DNA of 64,000 nt, taken from IMG/VR virus record IMGVR_UViG_3300023371_000069; one strand, written 5' to 3'. Positions 6,115 through 10,946 of this stretch are shown in pieces. The notes under the pieces were generated by a model. That model saw only the letters and a list, made by a program, of their open reading frames with translations. It was not told where the DNA came from and did no database searches. Source of the stretch: a virus (Duplodnaviria > Heunggongvirae > Uroviricota > Caudoviricetes). The translations under genes were made by a program, and so were the position numbers. Each line of letters starts with the position of its first letter. Position 1 is the stretch's first letter.

Positions 6115-6888
6115 ATGGATTTTAATGAGCGTATTGCGAAACTAAATAAGATAATTGCGGACGCTCGGCATATCGTGTTTTTTACCGGAGCCGGTATCTC
6201 AACTGGCTCCGGTATTCCGGATTTCCGCAGTGCGGATGGTCTGTACGCAAGTCCGTATATTGGAGGCAAGAGTCCGGAATATATGCTGAGCAGCACCTGC
6301 CTTCAGAAGCACGAACAGGCTTTTTTCGAGTATCTGCGTGAAAAAATGGATTTTCGTGGAGCTAAGCCAACCATCGCCCATCAAAGAATTTCTGAGCTGC
6401 AGGAAGCAAGAAAAGTGTCTGTGATTACACAAAATATTGATGGTTTACACGAAGACACTGGCATGGATAGGATATATGCTGTCCACGGTACTATGAGTCG
6501 TTGGTATTGCCAGGATTGTGGTCACGACTTGTTTATTCCAGAAGATGTATTGGATGGAAACTACAATAATCTAAATGATATTCCTAAATGCCCTCTGTGC
6601 GGCGAAGGCACTATCCGACCCGATATTGTCCTGTATGGTGAAGGGCTGGCATTTCCTGCTTGGAGCAATGCCCAGGTGGCAGCTGCTCAAGCCGACCTGA
6701 TGATTGTGGTTGGTAGCTCCCTGGTAGTTCAACCTGCCGCAAGCCTGCCATTCTACTGCGATGATAGTCATCTGGTTGTCATTAACAGAGACCCTACAGT
6801 AGCAGATTTCAGAGCTGAGCTGGTCTTCCATGAAGATATTCAAGATGTCTTCAATTTAATTGAAATTCCCGAAGGAGAAGTGAAATGA
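6115..6888 (+). CDS. Sir2-family NAD-dependent protein deacylase (sirtuin)
   Basis: GAGISTGSGIPDFRS, QNIDGLH and a CxxC...CxxC zinc module. Confidence 0.8.
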   Translation: MDFNERIAKLNKIIADARHIVFFTGAGISTGSGIPDFRSADGLYASPYIGGKSPEYMLSSTCLQKHEQAFFEYLREKMDFRGAKPTIAHQRISELQEARKVSVITQNIDGLHEDTGMDRIYAVHGTMSRWYCQDCGHDLFIPEDVLDGNYNNLNDIPKCPLCGEGTIRPDIVLYGEGLAFPAWSNAQVAAAQADLMIVVGSSLVVQPAASLPFYCDDSHLVVINRDPTVADFRAELVFHEDIQDVFNLIEIPEGEVK

Positions 6889-7286
6889 AGAAAGCGATTA
6901 AACTTTTTATTTGCTTTGTTTTGGCAATTTGCCTTTGTGTATCACTTATTGCTTGCGACACCCCTTATGAAGAAACCCCATCGTCTACGGAAACAATTGT
7001 TGAATCCATTCCCGACCTTAACGAAAACGCTATTCTCATTTTAGAGGATATGATTGGTCCGAGAATTGGGAATGAAGATTTTATTGGCACAGTTCTTGCA
7101 CACGTTCCCGATGTGTTTATGCTCCAAGAGTATAGGTGCGCTTGTTGGACATATTTCCTCGTAATGAGTGACGGAATGGAATATGTTATTTTCACTGATT
7201 ATGATGGTAAAATCACTTCTATTTGCGAGTGGTTCCCCGAATCTGGAGAATGCGGCCTCACCTTATATGAAGATAGAGTGGAATAA
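6885..7286 (+). CDS. lipoprotein (signal peptide with lipobox LIAC)
   Basis: N-terminal hydrophobic segment ending LIAC-D. Confidence 0.5.
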   Translation: MKKAIKLFICFVLAICLCVSLIACDTPYEETPSSTETIVESIPDLNENAILILEDMIGPRIGNEDFIGTVLAHVPDVFMLQEYRCACWTYFLVMSDGMEYVIFTDYDGKITSICEWFPESGECGLTLYEDRVE

Positions 7287-7288
7287 GT

Positions 7289-7320
7289 AAAAGCCCCTTG
7301 AGACTCAAGGGGCTTTTTTG
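7289..7320 (+). terminator. rho-independent terminator
   Basis: gccccttgag/ctcaaggggc hairpin followed by TTTTTT. Confidence 0.7.
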
Positions 7321-7346
7321 ATTTTTATAAAAAAATATGATATAAT
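7318..7346 (+). promoter_or_regulatory. sigma-70-like promoter of the repeated family
   Basis: ttgatttttataaaaaaatatgatataat. Confidence 0.65.
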
Positions 7347-7374
7347 ATATATAGAAAGTAAAGGAAGTGATTAA

Positions 7375-9103: not shown

Positions 9104-9609
9104 TGAGTATTCACTTTATTAAAGGTGATATGCTCGAAGCGAAATTGGATTATTACTGCCATCAGGTGAATTGCCAGGGGCGCATGGCCTCTGGCATCGC
9201 CAAGAACATTAAAACAAGATGGCATCGAGTATATGAAGATTATATTGCCCTCTGCACCAAGAGAGAAGAAGAAATCTATCAAATGTGCGGCGGGATGGAA
9301 AACGGACCCGACTGGACTGATACCCTTCTGGGCGAGATTCAGTTAGTTCCTGTTGATGTAGACAAGACTGTGATAAATATGTTTGCACAGCAATATTATG
9401 GCTATGATGGTAAGAGATATACTTCTTATGATGGCTTCTGGTCTTGTCTTGGTAAGATTAGGGACCAGGTACCCCACGGCAGTAAAATTGGCTTTCCTGA
9501 CCATATTGGCTGCGGCCTTGGTGGCGCAAATTGGGAAGTAATTAAAACGATGATTTGGGAAGCCCTTTCTGAGGACTATGATGTATATATTTACAAACTG
9601 GAGGCGTAA
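9103..9609 (+). CDS. macro-domain protein (ADP-ribose / O-acetyl-ADP-ribose processing)
   Basis: HQVNCQG...GIAK motif, macro-domain size, start overlaps the nadV stop. Confidence 0.65.
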   Translation: MSIHFIKGDMLEAKLDYYCHQVNCQGRMASGIAKNIKTRWHRVYEDYIALCTKREEEIYQMCGGMENGPDWTDTLLGEIQLVPVDVDKTVINMFAQQYYGYDGKRYTSYDGFWSCLGKIRDQVPHGSKIGFPDHIGCGLGGANWEVIKTMIWEALSEDYDVYIYKLEA

Positions 9610-9611
9610 AT

Positions 9612-10418
9612 ATGGGTGATTTTGATTTCAAAGTAATTGATGTTGAAGAGGAAATCCAGCACATTGTTGATGAAATTAAGAAATATTTTGTCAAGAATGG
9701 TAATGAGAATACCAAGGCAGTTATTGGTATTTCCGGTGGTAAGGATTCCACGATTGCGGCCGCCCTGCTTGTCCGAGCACTGGGTCCCGAAAGAGTTTTT
9801 GGTGTGCTGATGCCCGATGGTGACCAGAAGGATATTAAGGACTCTGTGGAAGTATGCAACATTCTTCATATTCCCTATAGAGCCTACAATATTGGCCCTA
9901 TCACCAAGATGTTTGCGGGAATGGTGGGTGACGCCTATAAAAATCCCGCAGTTAATACAAATACGCCTGCTCGTATCCGTATGGCAACTCTTTACGCAGT
10001 TGCCGCAGATATGGGCGGTCGAGTAATCAATACTGGCAATAAATCCGAACTGTATATCGGCTACACTACCAAGTATGGTGACCTGGCTGGCGACTTCGCT
10101 ATCTTAAAGGATTACTGCGTCCGTGAGGTCATTGAGATTGGCGACAATCTGGATGAGTTGCCCGCACACCTGGTTCATAAGGCACCTGGTGATGGTATGA
10201 GTGGTAAGACCGATGAAGATAACACTGGTATTCCTTATGATGTACTGGATGCTTATCTTTTGGATGAAGTACTTCCCGACTATGAGACTCTTCGCAAGAT
10301 TGAAGAGCGCCACACCAGAAATCTCCATAAAAGAGATATTTGCATGCCCTATATTCGTATCAAGACTCGTGCTTGGCACGAAAACAGCAACAAAGAAGAA
10401 AGTCCATTTAGTTTCTAA
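9612..10418 (+). CDS. nadE: NH3-dependent NAD+ synthetase (NadE-like PP-loop amidotransferase)
   Basis: GISGGKDST PP-loop; overall NadE-like layout. Confidence 0.75.
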   Translation: MGDFDFKVIDVEEEIQHIVDEIKKYFVKNGNENTKAVIGISGGKDSTIAAALLVRALGPERVFGVLMPDGDQKDIKDSVEVCNILHIPYRAYNIGPITKMFAGMVGDAYKNPAVNTNTPARIRMATLYAVAADMGGRVINTGNKSELYIGYTTKYGDLAGDFAILKDYCVREVIEIGDNLDELPAHLVHKAPGDGMSGKTDEDNTGIPYDVLDAYLLDEVLPDYETLRKIEERHTRNLHKRDICMPYIRIKTRAWHENSNKEESPFSF

Positions 10419-10430
10419 GGAGGTATCGCT

Positions 10431-10946
10431 ATGATTGCGATGTTTGATGGAAAGTACGCTTTCCTAAGCAACTTTTTCCCCTCTCCTTTTACTGTAGATG
10501 GTGTAACTTTTCCTACTGTGGAACACTGGTTCCAAGCTTGGAAAACCAAGAGTGAAAGTGAATTTAAAGCTATTGCAAAAGCAAAAACACCTGGACAGGC
10601 AAAGCGAATGGGGCGACACTGCTCTTTGCGCCCTGACTGGGAGCGTATTAAGATTAGTGTAATGCATGATGGTTTGAAATACAAATTTTCTGACCCCGAT
10701 TTAAAACAAAAACTTTTAGACACTGGTGATGAAGAATTAGTAGAAGGCAATACTTGGCATGATAATACTTGGGGTAATTGTGTTTGCCCCAAGTGTGCAG
10801 AAATCGAAGGTAAAAATATTCTTGGTAAAATTTTAATGGATGTGCGCCAAGAATTGCGCGAAGCAGAAAGTACCTATGCTAAAAATGCATCTACTTATAA
10901 AAAAACAGAAAAAACTGATTTCAAATTATCATATGGAGGAAAATAA
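10431..10946 (+). CDS. NADAR (YbiA/DUF1768) domain protein
   Basis: FLSNFFPSPF...HWFQ...W signature of NADAR. Confidence 0.7.
   Translation: MIAMFDGKYAFLSNFFPSPFTVDGVTFPTVEHWFQAWKTKSESEFKAIAKAKTPGQAKRMGRHCSLRPDWERIKISVMHDGLKYKFSDPDLKQKLLDTGDEELVEGNTWHDNTWGNCVCPKCAEIEGKNILGKILMDVRQELREAESTYAKNASTYKKTEKTDFKLSYGGK

What the first reader, a model, noticed from the sequence alone, without database searches (positions are those of the whole stretch)
6115..10946. Sir2 + macro domain + NADAR: an ADP-ribose processing trio embedded in the NAD island
A sirtuin produces O-acetyl-ADP-ribose and macro domains hydrolyse it. Macro domains and NADAR proteins are also the known erasers of ADP-ribose placed on DNA bases by DarT-type toxins. 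Their co-occurrence points to reversal of DNA or protein ADP-ribosylation (anti-DarTG-like function), recycling of ADP-ribose into the salvage pathway, or both. A phage-encoded Sir2 is itself unusual, since Sir2 domains are usually defence effectors.
Basis: partly seen in the sequence, partly recalled or inferred. Interest (0 to 1): 0.7.

Follow-up and report, generated by a model that had tools for sequence, protein, structure and literature searches.

The report
Phage NAD-rebuilding island with sirtuin
A large gut phage carries a conserved gene island for rebuilding the cofactor NAD+ after bacterial immune enzymes destroy it, and this island unusually also holds an NAD-consuming sirtuin and two ADP-ribose-trimming enzymes.

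Summary
Intact Sir2 (6115-6888), macro (9103-9609) and NADAR (10431-10946) genes lie on the + strand of a large dsDNA phage.

They are not a stand-alone trio. They sit in two promoter/terminator-bounded units of one NAD+ island:
- PncA-Adps-YqeY-Sir2-lipoprotein.
- Namat-macro-NadE-NADAR-kinase.

The 'NAMPT' is closest to the solved phage Namat. The 'Prs' is closest to phage Adps. Together they form NARP1, which rebuilds NAD+ from ADP-ribose plus nicotinamide.

- **Macro:** it has a macro fold of the DarG/Poa1p/TARG1 clade. It sits where the ADPR-1''-phosphate phosphatase Adpp sits in NARP1-AP operons. It appears to have Gln in place of the DarG/AdfM catalytic Lys.
- **NADAR:** it is a YbiA-type 'naked' NADAR with all catalytic residues.
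- **Sir2:** it is a canonical zinc-ribbon deacylase-type sirtuin, not a defence NADase.

The island is syntenic in seven relatives. The same gene set recurs in other orders in at least two further viral lineages.

Best reading: the macro and NADAR convert ADP-ribose derivatives to free ADP-ribose for NARP1, and the by-products of Sir2 can be recycled the same way. The anti-DarT reading is weakened for the macro and stays open for the NADAR.

Verdict: new variant of a known kind, moderate interest.

The parts
3866..3920 (+). Hairpin terminator (3866-3889) followed directly by a promoter-like site, TTGATT-N17-TGTTATAAT (3892-3920). This marks the start of transcription unit A.
   Evidence: The promoter motif has 15 hits in the window, all on the + strand, against 1.34 expected.
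3946..4536 (+). Isochorismatase-family protein, probably a nicotinamidase (PncA-like).
   Evidence: Pfam PF00857, 3.6e-24. Best PDB hit is the P. horikoshii nicotinamidase 1ILW, 2.9e-15, with the Asp, the Cys and most zinc ligands aligned. NCBIfam PncA is below its cut-off.
4747..5574 (+). PRPP-synthetase-like protein, probably Adps (ADP-ribose pyrophosphokinase, first enzyme of NARP1).
   Evidence: 33% identity, E 4e-32, to the gene next to Namat in Bacillus phage FADO, whose NARP1 operon was deleted experimentally. 32% identity to the Vibrio phage K354 counterpart. Cellular PRPP synthetases in the PDB reach only 9e-14. It is below every NCBIfam Prs cut-off. At 275 aa it lacks the C-terminal module that PMC13586617 says is missing in Adps.
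5593..6111 (+). YqeY/GatB-C-terminal-like protein (a tRNA-binding domain family).
   Evidence: Pfam PF09424, 27 bits, equal to the cut-off. It is adjacent to Sir2 in all relatives. In L031 it is also adjacent but in the opposite order.
6115..6888 (+). Sir2: a canonical deacylase-type sirtuin with a Cys4 zinc ribbon.
   Evidence: GAGIS, PDFR, TQNIDGLH, the HG catalytic His, C132/C135/C159/C162 and GSSL are at least 90-98% conserved in 118 homologues. No PADLOC defence model is hit.
6885..7286 (+). 133-aa predicted lipoprotein (signal peptide plus an LIAC lipobox). It overlaps the Sir2 stop codon and is the last gene of unit A.
   Evidence: Sequence. No family hits. Present in L001, L008 and L007 but absent from L009.
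7289..7346 (+). Strong 13-bp hairpin terminator (7289-7317) followed by a promoter-like site (7318-7346). This is the boundary between units A and B.
7628..9103 (+). NAMPT-family enzyme, probably Namat (nicotinamide ADP-ribose transferase, second enzyme of NARP1). The likely start is the ATG at 7628, not the GTG at 7556.
   Evidence: Best PDB hit is SPbetaL1 Namat 9W5X/9W5W at 7e-100, against 1e-48 for human NAMPT (PDB identities from PMC12774641). 40% identity, E 6e-100, to FADO Namat. The F392 clamp residue and the Asp of 'DFGxRG' are kept. R40 and Y396 are not kept.
9103..9609 (+). Macro-domain protein of the DarG/Poa1p/TARG1 clade, probably an Adpp-like ADP-ribose-1''-phosphate phosphatase.
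   Evidence: 33% identity, E 2e-30, to the macro gene lying between Adps and Namat in Vibrio phage K354. N23 is conserved. Q96 sits at the position of the DarG/AdfM catalytic Lys.
9612..10418 (+). NadE, a single-domain NAD+ synthetase with no glutaminase domain.
   Evidence: Pfam PF02540, 1e-50. TIGR00552, 169.6 bits against a cut-off of 63.65.
10431..10946 (+). NADAR protein of the YbiA type, with no N-terminal extension.
   Evidence: Pfam, 1.8e-32. TIGR02464, 108 bits against 73.7. PDB YbiA 3.6e-19 and P. nicotianae NADAR 5.7e-14. The equivalents of E43, K50, E125, D130 and W133 are present. Residue roles come from PMC11543638.
10947..11473 (+). AAA_28 P-loop kinase gene, possibly a nicotinamide-riboside-kinase-like enzyme. 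It is interrupted by a 1-nt frameshift near 11156-11159 in this window.
   Evidence: It is an intact 175-aa ORF in L001, which scores AAA_28 2.3e-10. The two frames in the window are shown.
11461..11512 (+). Terminator (11461-11483) plus promoter-like site (11484-11512). This marks the end of unit B and the start of unit C.
11860..12438 (+). NadM-like nicotinamide-nucleotide adenylyltransferase. It is an accessory gene, present in the window, L019 and L022-L024 but absent from L001, L007, L008 and L009.
   Evidence: NCBIfam TIGR01527, 1.6e-13, below the cut-off. Pfam CTP_transf_like. Distribution.

Best explanation
The three genes are accessory enzymes of an extended NAD+ reconstitution island built around NARP1.

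Context from the literature: host immune NADases split NAD+ into nicotinamide plus ADP-ribose or ADP-ribose derivatives. Adps pyrophosphorylates free ADP-ribose. Namat joins the product to nicotinamide to remake NAD+.

Inferred roles here:
- The macro protein acts like the phage phosphatase Adpp. It converts ADP-ribose-1''-phosphate, and possibly O-acetyl-ADP-ribose, to free ADP-ribose.
- The NADAR hydrolyses N-glycosidic ADP-ribose adducts, such as guanine-ADP-ribose on DNA or a soluble N-linked derivative. This also releases ADP-ribose.
- The sirtuin is an ordinary NAD+-dependent deacylase of unknown target. Its two by-products, nicotinamide and O-acetyl-ADP-ribose, are exactly what macro plus NARP1 can turn back into NAD+, so its activity costs only ATP.
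- PncA removes nicotinamide, which inhibits sirtuins. NadE closes the deamidated salvage route.

Shown here: gene identities, fold, conserved catalytic residues, operon structure, and conservation and recurrence of the gene set. Inferred: every substrate and the flux between the enzymes.
For: - **NARP1 core.** The NAMPT-like protein is far closer to crystallised Namat (338 bits) than to human NAMPT (170 bits). It is 40% identical to the Namat of phage FADO. The Prs-like protein is closer to phage Adps (117 bits) than to any solved PRPP synthetase (55 bits). Most relatives lack a phage NMNAT. That fits direct NAD+ synthesis by Namat.
- **Macro.** It is a high-confidence macro fold. It is homologous (E 2e-30) to the gene between Adps and Namat in Vibrio phage K354. 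That arrangement is the one shown to encode the ADPR-1''P phosphatase Adpp (bioRxiv 10.64898/2026.01.28.702374).
- **Precedent.** Adpp and RyDEP (PMC13232231) are accessory genes inside NARP1 operons that convert ADP-ribose derivatives to ADP-ribose.
- **NADAR.** The catalytic residues are intact. In a second lineage (L065, L075, L083) the NADAR lies directly after the macro, in PncA-Adps-Namat-macro-NADAR-NadE.
- **Sir2.** It passes the deacylase equivalog cut-off. Its motifs are conserved in 118 homologues. Of 80 viral Sir2 loci, 21 have PncA, 12 have Adps and 11 have Namat within 8 kb.
- **Selection.** dN/dS is 0.09-0.27 for all three genes.
- **NAD+ demand.** The phage also encodes an NAD-dependent DNA ligase.
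Against: - No activity was measured.
- The Namat assignment is not clean. The protein also passes an NCBIfam NAMPT-family cut-off (413 bits against 405). Two of three published clamp residues differ, and there is a 10-residue insertion. Namat retains PRPP activity in vitro (PMC12774641). This window also has an NMNAT, so a PRPP-based route is possible.
- Sir2 consumes NAD+, which sits oddly in a rebuilding operon. Its target is unknown.
- Sir2 is in a different transcription unit from macro and NADAR.
- A related gut-phage contig (L006) has Adps-Namat-macro-NadE-PncA with no Sir2 or NADAR. They are therefore dispensable add-ons.
- The flanks are rich in RNA-repair genes, which suits a rival reading.
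Confidence: 0.5

Rival explanations
1. Anti-DarT counter-defence. The macro removes ADP-ribose from thymine and the NADAR removes it from guanine on phage DNA, as orphan antitoxins like AdfM and AdfN. The NAD genes nearby are a separate function or only recycle the released ADP-ribose.
For: - The macro matches DarG profiles over the whole macro part: PADLOC 1.9e-15 and NCBIfam 2.2e-14. DarG macros are its top structural hits. The active-site Asn (N23) is invariant.
- The NADAR has all catalytic residues. It is 45% identical to the NADAR of a T5-like Markadamsvirinae phage. PMC11825919 showed a DarT1-neutralising NADAR in that subfamily.
- Every NADAR subtype tested so far cleaves guanine-ADP-ribose in vitro (PMC11125620).
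Against: - The residue critical for DarG and listed as active-site in AdfM (K80/K78, 'FPTK') aligns with an invariant Gln in 'NMFAQ' when counted ungapped from the invariant Gly.
- There is no DarT-binding domain. The protein is 168 aa and matches profile positions 2-143 of 329.
- The NADAR is YbiA-type and lacks the basic N-terminal extension linked to ssDNA binding (PMC11543638). E. coli YbiA did not rescue DarT1 toxicity in vivo (PMC11125620).
- Both genes sit inside a NAD-synthesis operon, not among early anti-defence genes.
Confidence: 0.2
2. NAD-dependent RNA (tRNA) repair. The sirtuin, guided by the tRNA-binding YqeY protein, removes 2'-phosphates from healed tRNA in the manner of Tpt1/KptA, as Iyer et al. 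proposed for phage sirtuins. The ADP-ribose cyclic phosphate by-product is opened to ADP-ribose-1''-phosphate. The Poa1p-like macro dephosphorylates it, and NARP1 recycles the ADP-ribose.
For: - The island is flanked by RNA-repair-type genes. Upstream lie an RNA ligase (window 22-594; PHA02142 family in relatives), Thg1 and RNase T. Downstream lie an AAA_33 kinase and two calcineurin-like phosphoesterases.
- YqeY is adjacent to Sir2 in two lineages, in opposite orders. The YqeY domain binds tRNA (PMC1865053).
- The macro is related to yeast Poa1p, the ADPR-1''P phosphatase of tRNA splicing.
- The proposal is made in PMC9503650, section 3.7.3.
Against: - No sirtuin has been shown to have 2'-phosphotransferase activity, as far as I know and as far as the papers read here report.
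- This Sir2 is not in the divergent proteobacterial-phage clade for which the idea was made. It is only 24-29% identical to T5-like and KVP40 Sir2. It passes a cellular deacylase equivalog model and keeps the peptide-binding 'LYGE' segment.
- Iyer et al. noted that their RNA-repair sirtuins are not coupled to macro genes.
Confidence: 0.15
3. Sirtuin-macro toxin-antitoxin or signalling pair of the SirTM/macro type. The sirtuin ADP-ribosylates a protein and the macro reverses it.
For: Sirtuin-macro two-gene systems exist in bacteria and in actinophages (PMC9503650, section 3.7.1).
Against: - The two genes are 2.2 kb apart in different transcription units.
- SirTM structures are not among the 60 PDB sequence hits shown. 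The best hits are class-U and class-I deacetylases.
- In the second lineage Sir2 lies 0.7-4 kb upstream of PncA, not next to the macro.
Confidence: 0.03
4. Plain auxiliary metabolism. The island only boosts NAD+ supply by classical salvage (Prs + Nampt + NMNAT, and PncA + NadE) for the phage's NAD-dependent ligase. Sir2, macro and NADAR are functionally unrelated passengers.
For: - The NAMPT-like protein passes an NCBIfam NAMPT-family model.
- NMNAT and an AAA_28 kinase are present in this window.
- The phage encodes an NAD-dependent LigA.
Against: - The gene set including Sir2, macro and NADAR recurs in at least three different gene orders.
- NMNAT is missing from most relatives.
- The closest characterised homologues are Namat and Adps, not Nampt and Prs.
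Confidence: 0.1

Closest known systems
NARP1-AP (Adps - Adpp macro phosphatase - Namat) of Vibrio phage Gary (Osterman et al., bioRxiv 10.64898/2026.01.28.702374). A homologous three-gene operon is present in Vibrio phage K354.
   Same: The components are homologous: Prs-like 32%, macro 33% and NAMPT-like 28% identity to the K354 genes. The macro lies directly next to Namat. The logic is the same: convert an ADP-ribose derivative to ADP-ribose for NAD+ resynthesis.
   Different: The three genes here are spread over two transcription units, with Adps 2 kb from Namat. They are joined by PncA, YqeY, Sir2, a lipoprotein, NadE and NADAR, plus a kinase and an NMNAT in some members. The macro has a 20-residue helical insert (residues about 50-75) that is absent from the Vibrio protein.
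RyDEP inside the NARP1 operon of mycobacteriophage DyoEdafos (PMC13232231).
   Same: An accessory hydrolase embedded in a NARP1 operon that yields linear ADP-ribose for Adps and Namat.
   Different: The fold is unrelated (RyR R12 domain) and it cleaves an O-glycosidic ribose-ribose bond in 2'/3'cADPR. The NADAR here is an N-glycosidase family with no demonstrated soluble substrate.
Phage orphan antitoxins AdfN (NADAR; PMC11825919) and AdfM (macro; PMC13309987).
   Same: The domain families are the same, as stand-alone phage proteins. The NADAR catalytic residues are conserved. The macro shares the clade and the Asn active-site residue.
   Different: The NADAR has the YbiA-type Glu, not the gp30.3-type His or the DarG1-type Asp (classes from PMC11125620). 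The macro has Gln where AdfM and DarG have the catalytic Lys. The genomic context is NAD synthesis.
Cellular class-U/CobB-type sirtuin deacylases (Thermotoga Sir2, Archaeoglobus Sir2-Af2) and the yeast Sir2-Pnc1 coupling.
   Same: All motifs and the zinc ribbon are shared, with E 1e-36 to 1e-42 to the solved enzymes. Linkage to a nicotinamidase mirrors Pnc1 relieving nicotinamide inhibition of Sir2, which is established yeast biology recalled from my own knowledge.
   Different: It is phage-encoded, vertically conserved in a phage family down to 57% identity, co-transcribed with Adps and YqeY, and its target is unknown.

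Membership tests
Sirtuin (Sir2) NAD-dependent protein deacylase | Rossmann NAD-binding motifs (GAGxS, TQNID), a catalytic His, and a profile score above the curated cut-off. | tested here: met
   Pfam, 9e-45. NCBIfam NF001752, 253.7 bits against 221. GAGIS, PDFR, TQNIDGLH and H124-G125 are invariant or nearly so.
Sirtuin (Sir2) NAD-dependent protein deacylase | Cys4 zinc-ribbon module. | tested here: met
   C132, C135 and C159 are invariant. C162 is at least 90% conserved. All align with the CxxC pairs of Sir2-Af2 and Sir2Tm.
Sirtuin (Sir2) NAD-dependent protein deacylase | NAD-dependent removal of acyl groups from lysine. 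| not testable with these tools
   Needs an enzyme assay.
Defence-type Sir2 NADase (ThsA, DSR1/2, SIR2-HerA, pAgo-associated) | Match to defence Sir2 profiles, and fusion to or pairing with a sensor such as SLOG, HerA or a CTD. | tested here: not met
   No PADLOC model at E <= 0.001. It is a single 257-aa domain. Its neighbours are NAD-synthesis genes.
Macro domain | Macro fold (a three-layer alpha/beta/alpha sandwich with the ADP-ribose-binding loops). | tested here: met
   AlphaFold2 pLDDT 89.3, pTM 0.87. All 50 listed Foldseek PDB hits are macro domains or designs built on one. Probability 1.00, TM up to 0.77 (query) and 0.84 (target).
Macro domain | Pfam PF01661 gathering score. | tested here: not met
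   13.9 bits against a cut-off of 22. Some close homologues do carry a precomputed PF01661 hit.
Adpp / NARP1-AP phosphatase | Poa1p-like macro protein encoded within or next to an Adps-Namat operon. | tested here: met
   It starts at the Namat stop codon (9103). It is homologous, E 2e-30, to the macro gene between Adps and Namat in Vibrio phage K354. Poa1p is among the top sequence and structure hits.
Adpp / NARP1-AP phosphatase | Hydrolysis of ADP-ribose-1''-phosphate to ADP-ribose. | not testable with these tools
   Needs an enzyme assay. The residues mutated in the preprint are given only in a figure, which is not held.
DarG2 / AdfM DNA ADP-ribosylglycohydrolase | Catalytic Lys (Taq DarG K80, PhiKZ AdfM K78) at the end of the 'FPTK' strand. 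| tested here: not met
   Counted ungapped from the invariant Gly (window G77, AdfM G59), K78 falls on window Q96. Q96 is invariant in 44 family members. MAFFT and hhalign give a different register through a shared 'DGKR' turn. Confidence in this result is therefore moderate.
DarG2 / AdfM DNA ADP-ribosylglycohydrolase | C-terminal DarT-binding domain and an adjacent DarT (for DarG2 proper). | tested here: not met
   The protein is 168 aa and matches only positions 2-143 of the 329-position DarG profile. No ART was found among the neighbours or the other ORFs scanned.
NADAR superfamily | Pfam PF08719 above its cut-off, plus the catalytic residues (PnNADAR E43, K50, E125, D130, W133). | tested here: met
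   113.3 bits against 35.1. E31, K38, the Glu of 'LVEG' and the D and W of 'HDNTWG' align.
DarG1-type NADAR (BC4488 family) | Asp in the last strand, an N-terminal basic extension, and an adjacent DarT1. | tested here: not met
   It has Glu, not Asp. The protein starts at the core 'FLSNF' motif. No DarG1 structure was hit at E <= 0.01.
NARP1 (Adps + Namat) | Prs-like and NAMPT-like genes in close proximity, each closer to Adps or Namat than to Prs or Nampt. | tested here: met
   They are 2 kb apart on the same strand. Namat scores 338 bits against 170 for NAMPT. Adps scores 117 bits against 55 for Prs.
NARP1 (Adps + Namat) | Namat adenine 'selectivity clamp' residues (SPbetaL1 R40, F392, Y396). 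| tested here: inconclusive
   The F392 equivalent is kept. R40 is Met. Y396 is Val after a 10-residue insertion that contains a Phe. PMC12774641 itself calls the loop residue non-conserved.

The most novel reading that the evidence does not exclude
The island is a closed, NAD-neutral reaction cycle. A phage sirtuin, working with the tRNA-binding YqeY partner, carries out an NAD-consuming repair or de-modification. Candidates are removal of an acyl or phosphate mark placed on the translation apparatus by a host defence. Macro, NADAR and NARP1 then return every by-product to NAD+. In this reading NADAR is a third class of NARP1 'feeder' enzyme, after Adpp and RyDEP, acting on a so far unassigned N-linked ADP-ribose immune product. 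A recurrent major-vault-protein homologue inside the same island hints at a further structural partner.
Probability: 0.15. Interest if true: 0.8.

Novelty: new variant of a known kind. Interest (0 to 1): 0.55.

Why it matters
NAD+ depletion is a major bacterial antiviral strategy. Phage NAD+ reconstitution (NARP1, NARP2, NARP3, and the Adpp and RyDEP add-ons) is an active research area.

This island shows a larger version conserved in gut phages. In it a NARP1 core is combined with a nicotinamidase, an NAD synthetase, a NADAR and a canonical sirtuin.

If NADAR proves to be a feeder enzyme, it would give the widespread phage NADARs a second role and identify another ADP-ribose-derived immune product.

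The function of phage-encoded housekeeping-type sirtuins is unknown. Their repeated linkage to PncA, Adps and YqeY offers a defined system in which to test it.

Tried and rejected
- Megablast of the island against 50,697 phage records found no match. Context therefore had to come from protein-level searches.
- Sir2 neighbourhoods in KVP40, Bacillus phage JL, two huge uncultured phages and one faecal contig hold no NAD-island genes. The linkage is not a general property of phage Sir2.
- I tried to fetch BASEL phage Bas32 by a guessed accession, to compare its DarT1-neutralising NADAR. The record was Bas55, so I abandoned this. The link to AdfN-Bas32 rests only on 45% identity to a phage of the same subfamily.
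I judged this spurious, because the predicted hairpin and the ungapped register from the invariant Gly put the catalytic Lys on Q96. This remains a judgement.
- I rejected the nicotinate-specific 'deamidated NARP1' idea as the main route. The Asp that binds the amide of nicotinamide in NAMPT is retained. The Asp-219 role is from my own knowledge of human NAMPT.
- I rejected the SirTM-macro toxin-antitoxin reading (see rivals).
- The full text of the NIR/TEP1 vault preprint is not held.

Full report
**What is there**

The window is part of a large dsDNA phage. It encodes a PolC-like polymerase, both topoisomerase II subunits, an NAD-dependent DNA ligase, DnaB, RecJ, NrdD, PhoH and an endolysin. 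Almost all genes are on the + strand. Nucleotide search against 50,697 phage records finds nothing.

Between 3.9 and 12.5 kb lies a tight row of + strand genes:

| Coordinates | Gene |
|---|---|
| 3946-4536 | isochorismatase/PncA-like |
| 4747-5574 | PRPP-synthetase-like |
| 5593-6111 | YqeY |
| 6115-6888 | Sir2 |
| 6885-7286 | lipoprotein |
| 7628-9103 | NAMPT-like |
| 9103-9609 | 168-aa protein with no Pfam hit |
| 9612-10418 | NadE |
| 10431-10946 | NADAR |
| 10947-11473 | P-loop kinase |
| 11860-12438 | NadM-like NMNAT |

The three genes in the finding are therefore real and sit at the stated coordinates.

**The three proteins**

*Sir2*
- It scores 9e-45 on Pfam SIR2.
- It passes the NCBIfam equivalog model for NAD-dependent protein deacylase, 253.7 bits against a cut-off of 221.
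- It aligns end to end with Archaeoglobus Sir2-Af2 (7.6e-42) and Thermotoga Sir2 (3e-36).
- GAGIS, PDFR, TQNIDGLH, the catalytic His-Gly, both CxxC pairs of the zinc ribbon and GSSL are conserved in 118 homologues of 55-98% identity.
- It matches no PADLOC defence model.
- It is therefore a housekeeping-type deacylase sirtuin, not a defence NADase.

*Macro*
- The 168-aa protein is below the Pfam Macro threshold.
- It matches phrog_335 at 4e-32.
- By sequence it matches solved macro domains: BT1257, DarG of Thermus and Mycobacterium, Poa1p and TARG1.
- An AlphaFold2 model built on 44 homologues has pLDDT 89.3.
- Its best Foldseek hits are DarG macros (1e-10), Poa1p (6e-10), BT1257 (TM 0.77/0.84) and TARG1.
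- The fold is settled. Fold alone does not separate a phosphatase from a glycohydrolase or a deacylase.

*NADAR*
- It scores 1.8e-32 on Pfam. Its best solved relative is E. coli YbiA.
- It keeps the residues shown to matter in P. nicotianae NADAR: E43, K50, E125, D130 and W133 (PMC11543638).
- The class-defining residue is Glu. That makes it YbiA-type, not the Asp of DarG1 or the His of T4 gp30.3 (classes from PMC11125620).
- It has no N-terminal extension.

**The context changes the reading**

- The NAMPT-like protein's best solved relatives are 9W5X and 9W5W (7e-100), against 1e-48 for human NAMPT. PMC12774641 identifies those entries as Namat of phage SPbetaL1, the enzyme that joins ADP-ribose pyrophosphate to nicotinamide.
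- It is 40% identical (E 6e-100) to the Namat of Bacillus phage FADO. The Prs-like protein is 33% identical (E 4e-32) to the adjacent FADO gene. The FADO NARP1 operon was deleted experimentally (bioRxiv 10.1101/2024.02.11.579819).
- Cellular PRPP synthetases reach only 9e-14.
- In Vibrio phage K354 a homologue of the macro (33% identity, E 2e-30) lies between Adps and Namat. That is the NARP1-AP arrangement, in which the macro protein Adpp was shown to convert ADP-ribose-1''-phosphate to ADP-ribose (bioRxiv 10.64898/2026.01.28.702374).
- A second precedent for a feeder enzyme inside NARP1 is RyDEP (PMC13232231).

**Is the macro a DarG-like DNA eraser?**

It shares the clade and the active-site Asn (N23, invariant). 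I fetched PhiKZ gp104 (AdfM). PMC13309987 shows that AdfM removes DarT2-mediated ADP-ribose from DNA and lists N23 and K78 as its putative active-site residues.

Counting without gaps from the Gly conserved in all sequences (window G77, AdfM G59), K78 of 'FPTK' falls on window Q96 of 'NMFAQ'. Q96 is invariant in the 44-member alignment. It is also Gln in the K354 Adpp-position protein and in two other phage homologues.

MAFFT and hhalign choose another register through a shared 'DGKR' turn. The predicted hairpin (strands 79-85 and 88-98) supports the ungapped register.

I conclude, with moderate confidence, that the catalytic Lys is missing. There is also no DarT-binding domain. This weakens the thymine-eraser idea and fits the Adpp reading.

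**Operon structure**

A promoter-like motif, TTGATT-N17-TATAAT, occurs 15 times in the window. All hits are on the + strand, against 1.34 expected. Three copies directly follow strong hairpin terminators, at 3866-3920, 7289-7346 and 11461-11512. This gives three units:
- Unit A: PncA-Adps-YqeY-Sir2-lipoprotein.
- Unit B: Namat-macro-NadE-NADAR-kinase.
- Unit C: contains NMNAT.

Sir2 is therefore co-transcribed with Adps, not with macro or NADAR.

**Conservation**

- Sir2 homologues form a continuum from 98% to 55% identity.
- Contigs carrying Sir2 at 86, 82, 78 and 65% identity (up to 293 kb long), and two reached through the macro, all show the same block. That block is PncA-Adps-YqeY-Sir2-(lipoprotein)-Namat-macro-NadE-NADAR, flanked by RNA ligase, Thg1 and RNase T upstream and by Metallophos, an AAA_33 kinase, Metallophos and Band_7 downstream.
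- Pairwise dN/dS is 0.09-0.21 for Sir2, 0.17-0.27 for macro and 0.09-0.17 for NADAR. Synonymous sites are near saturation.
- The island is mosaic. Adps of L020 is 99% identical to the window while its Sir2 is 78% identical. Namat has two alleles that are about 42% identical.
- A scan of IMG/VR with a Sir2 alignment returned 80 viral loci. Within 8 kb of Sir2, 21 have PncA, 13 NadE, 12 Adps, 12 NADAR, 11 Namat, 8 macro and 8 YqeY.
- Two further arrangements stand out. One is Sir2 ... PncA-Adps-Namat-macro-NADAR-NadE (L065, L075, L083). The other is NADAR-x-Sir2-YqeY ... MVP-PncA-Adps ... Namat (L029, L031-L033).
- For scale, homologues occur in 130 (Sir2), 764 (macro), 808 (NADAR) and 2,041 (NAMPT-like) of 50,697 phage records.
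- Elsewhere (KVP40, Bacillus phage JL, huge uncultured phages) Sir2 is not linked to NAD genes.
- A gut contig (L006) has Adps-Namat-macro-NadE-PncA without Sir2 or NADAR.

**Mechanism proposed**

Most of this is inference.
1. Host NADases give nicotinamide plus ADP-ribose or its derivatives.
2. The macro (ADPR-1''P, perhaps O-acetyl-ADPR) and the NADAR (N-linked ADP-ribose, on DNA or soluble) release free ADP-ribose.
3. Adps and Namat rebuild NAD+.
4. PncA and NadE serve the deamidated route.

The sirtuin consumes NAD+, but its products are nicotinamide and O-acetyl-ADP-ribose. Both are recyclable by the same island, and PncA would relieve nicotinamide inhibition. Its target is unknown.

The phage's NAD-dependent ligase gives it an intrinsic need for NAD+.

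**Rivals**

- *Anti-DarT erasers.* This remains open for the NADAR, because every NADAR subtype tested so far cleaves guanine-ADP-ribose in vitro (PMC11125620). It is weakened for the macro.
- *NAD-dependent tRNA repair.* Sir2 with the tRNA-binding YqeY would act like Tpt1, and the macro like Poa1p. The RNA-repair genes on both flanks and the Sir2-YqeY adjacency in two orders favour this. Against it, this sirtuin is a canonical deacylase by every sequence test and is not in the clade for which Iyer et al. made the proposal (PMC9503650).
- *Sirtuin-macro toxin-antitoxin pair* and *unrelated passengers.* Both fit the data poorly.

**Comparison with the literature, and verdict**

At the domain level, jumbo and medium phages are known to carry SIR2, Macro, NADAR and NAD-salvage genes, and NADAR has been seen in salvage neighbourhoods (PMC7824862, PMC9503650). 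NARP1, NARP1-AP and RyDEP are published or preprinted.

In the papers I could search I did not find two things:
- a NARP1 operon extended by a canonical sirtuin, YqeY, PncA, NadE and NADAR;
- any experiment on a phage housekeeping-type sirtuin.

I file this as a new variant of a known kind, with moderate interest (0.55).

Noticed in passing
window 1337-3853 (+); also L029 near 13175 and L031-L033 10983-13475: An 838-aa true homologue of the eukaryotic major vault protein. Pfam MVP_shoulder scores 2e-23, with Vault_3 also hit. It aligns over residues 320-790 with rat MVP at E 2e-23. It has its own promoter and terminator immediately upstream of the NAD island. It is absent from the close relatives. 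A 59-60% identical copy sits inside the NAD island of a different phage lineage, again just before PncA. Eukaryotic vaults carry PARP4 and TEP1, and a 2026 preprint abstract links a NADase domain to TEP1.
   Followed up: partly
window 10947-11473 (+); L001 15058-15582: The AAA_28 P-loop kinase gene carries a 1-nt frameshift near 11156-11159 in this window. It is an intact 175-aa ORF in the relative L001. This could be a pseudogene, an assembly error or programmed slippage. No test here distinguishes these.
   Followed up: partly
window, 15 sites from 1274 to 54138, all + strand: A highly similar promoter-like element, TTGATTTTTATAAAAAAATATGnTATAAT (extended -10), occurs 15 times against 1.3 expected. 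It often follows a hairpin terminator directly. This suggests a single class of host-sigma-dependent phage promoters arranged as terminator-promoter cassettes.
   Followed up: partly
window 7628-9103 compared with L001 11453-13276, L007 9277-11040 and L009 8858-10618: There are two allelic forms of the Namat-like gene within one phage family. One is 491 aa (window, L008, L019). The other is about 586 aa, only about 42% identical, with an extra segment of about 80-95 residues in the middle. The flanking genes are 65-95% identical, so the gene was replaced by recombination.
   Followed up: no
window 4747-5574 compared with L020: Gene-by-gene mosaicism exists inside the island. Adps of L020 is 98.9% identical to the window (dS 0.27). 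The neighbouring Sir2 is 78% identical and the macro 67%.
   Followed up: no
window 6885-7286 (+): A predicted lipoprotein (signal peptide and LIAC lipobox) overlaps the Sir2 stop codon and ends transcription unit A. It has no family match and is variably present among relatives. It may be a superinfection-exclusion-type protein.
   Followed up: no
window 22-594, 12608-13372, 13841-14386 and 14383-14970 (+), plus relatives' upstream genes: The NAD island is bracketed by RNA-repair-type genes. These are an RNA ligase (PHA02142 family in relatives), Thg1-like and RNase T genes upstream in relatives, and two calcineurin-like phosphoesterases and an AAA_33 kinase downstream.
   Followed up: partly
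window 10431-10946, residues about 110-122: The NADAR and all its close relatives carry a conserved 'WHDNTWGNCVCxKC' segment with three Cys and a His, which is absent from YbiA. It may be a small metal site. The window copy also has a 22-residue C-terminal tail that the relatives lack.
   Followed up: no
L102 (Phage Phass-1, OQ749652, human gut, genetic code 15 clade): An unrelated recoded gut phage has an Adps-Namat pair about 7 kb upstream of a NADAR that is 50% identical to the window's.
   Followed up: no
window 15599-17107 (+): A 502-aa SPFH/Band_7-flotillin-like protein is conserved downstream of the island in all relatives.
   Followed up: no
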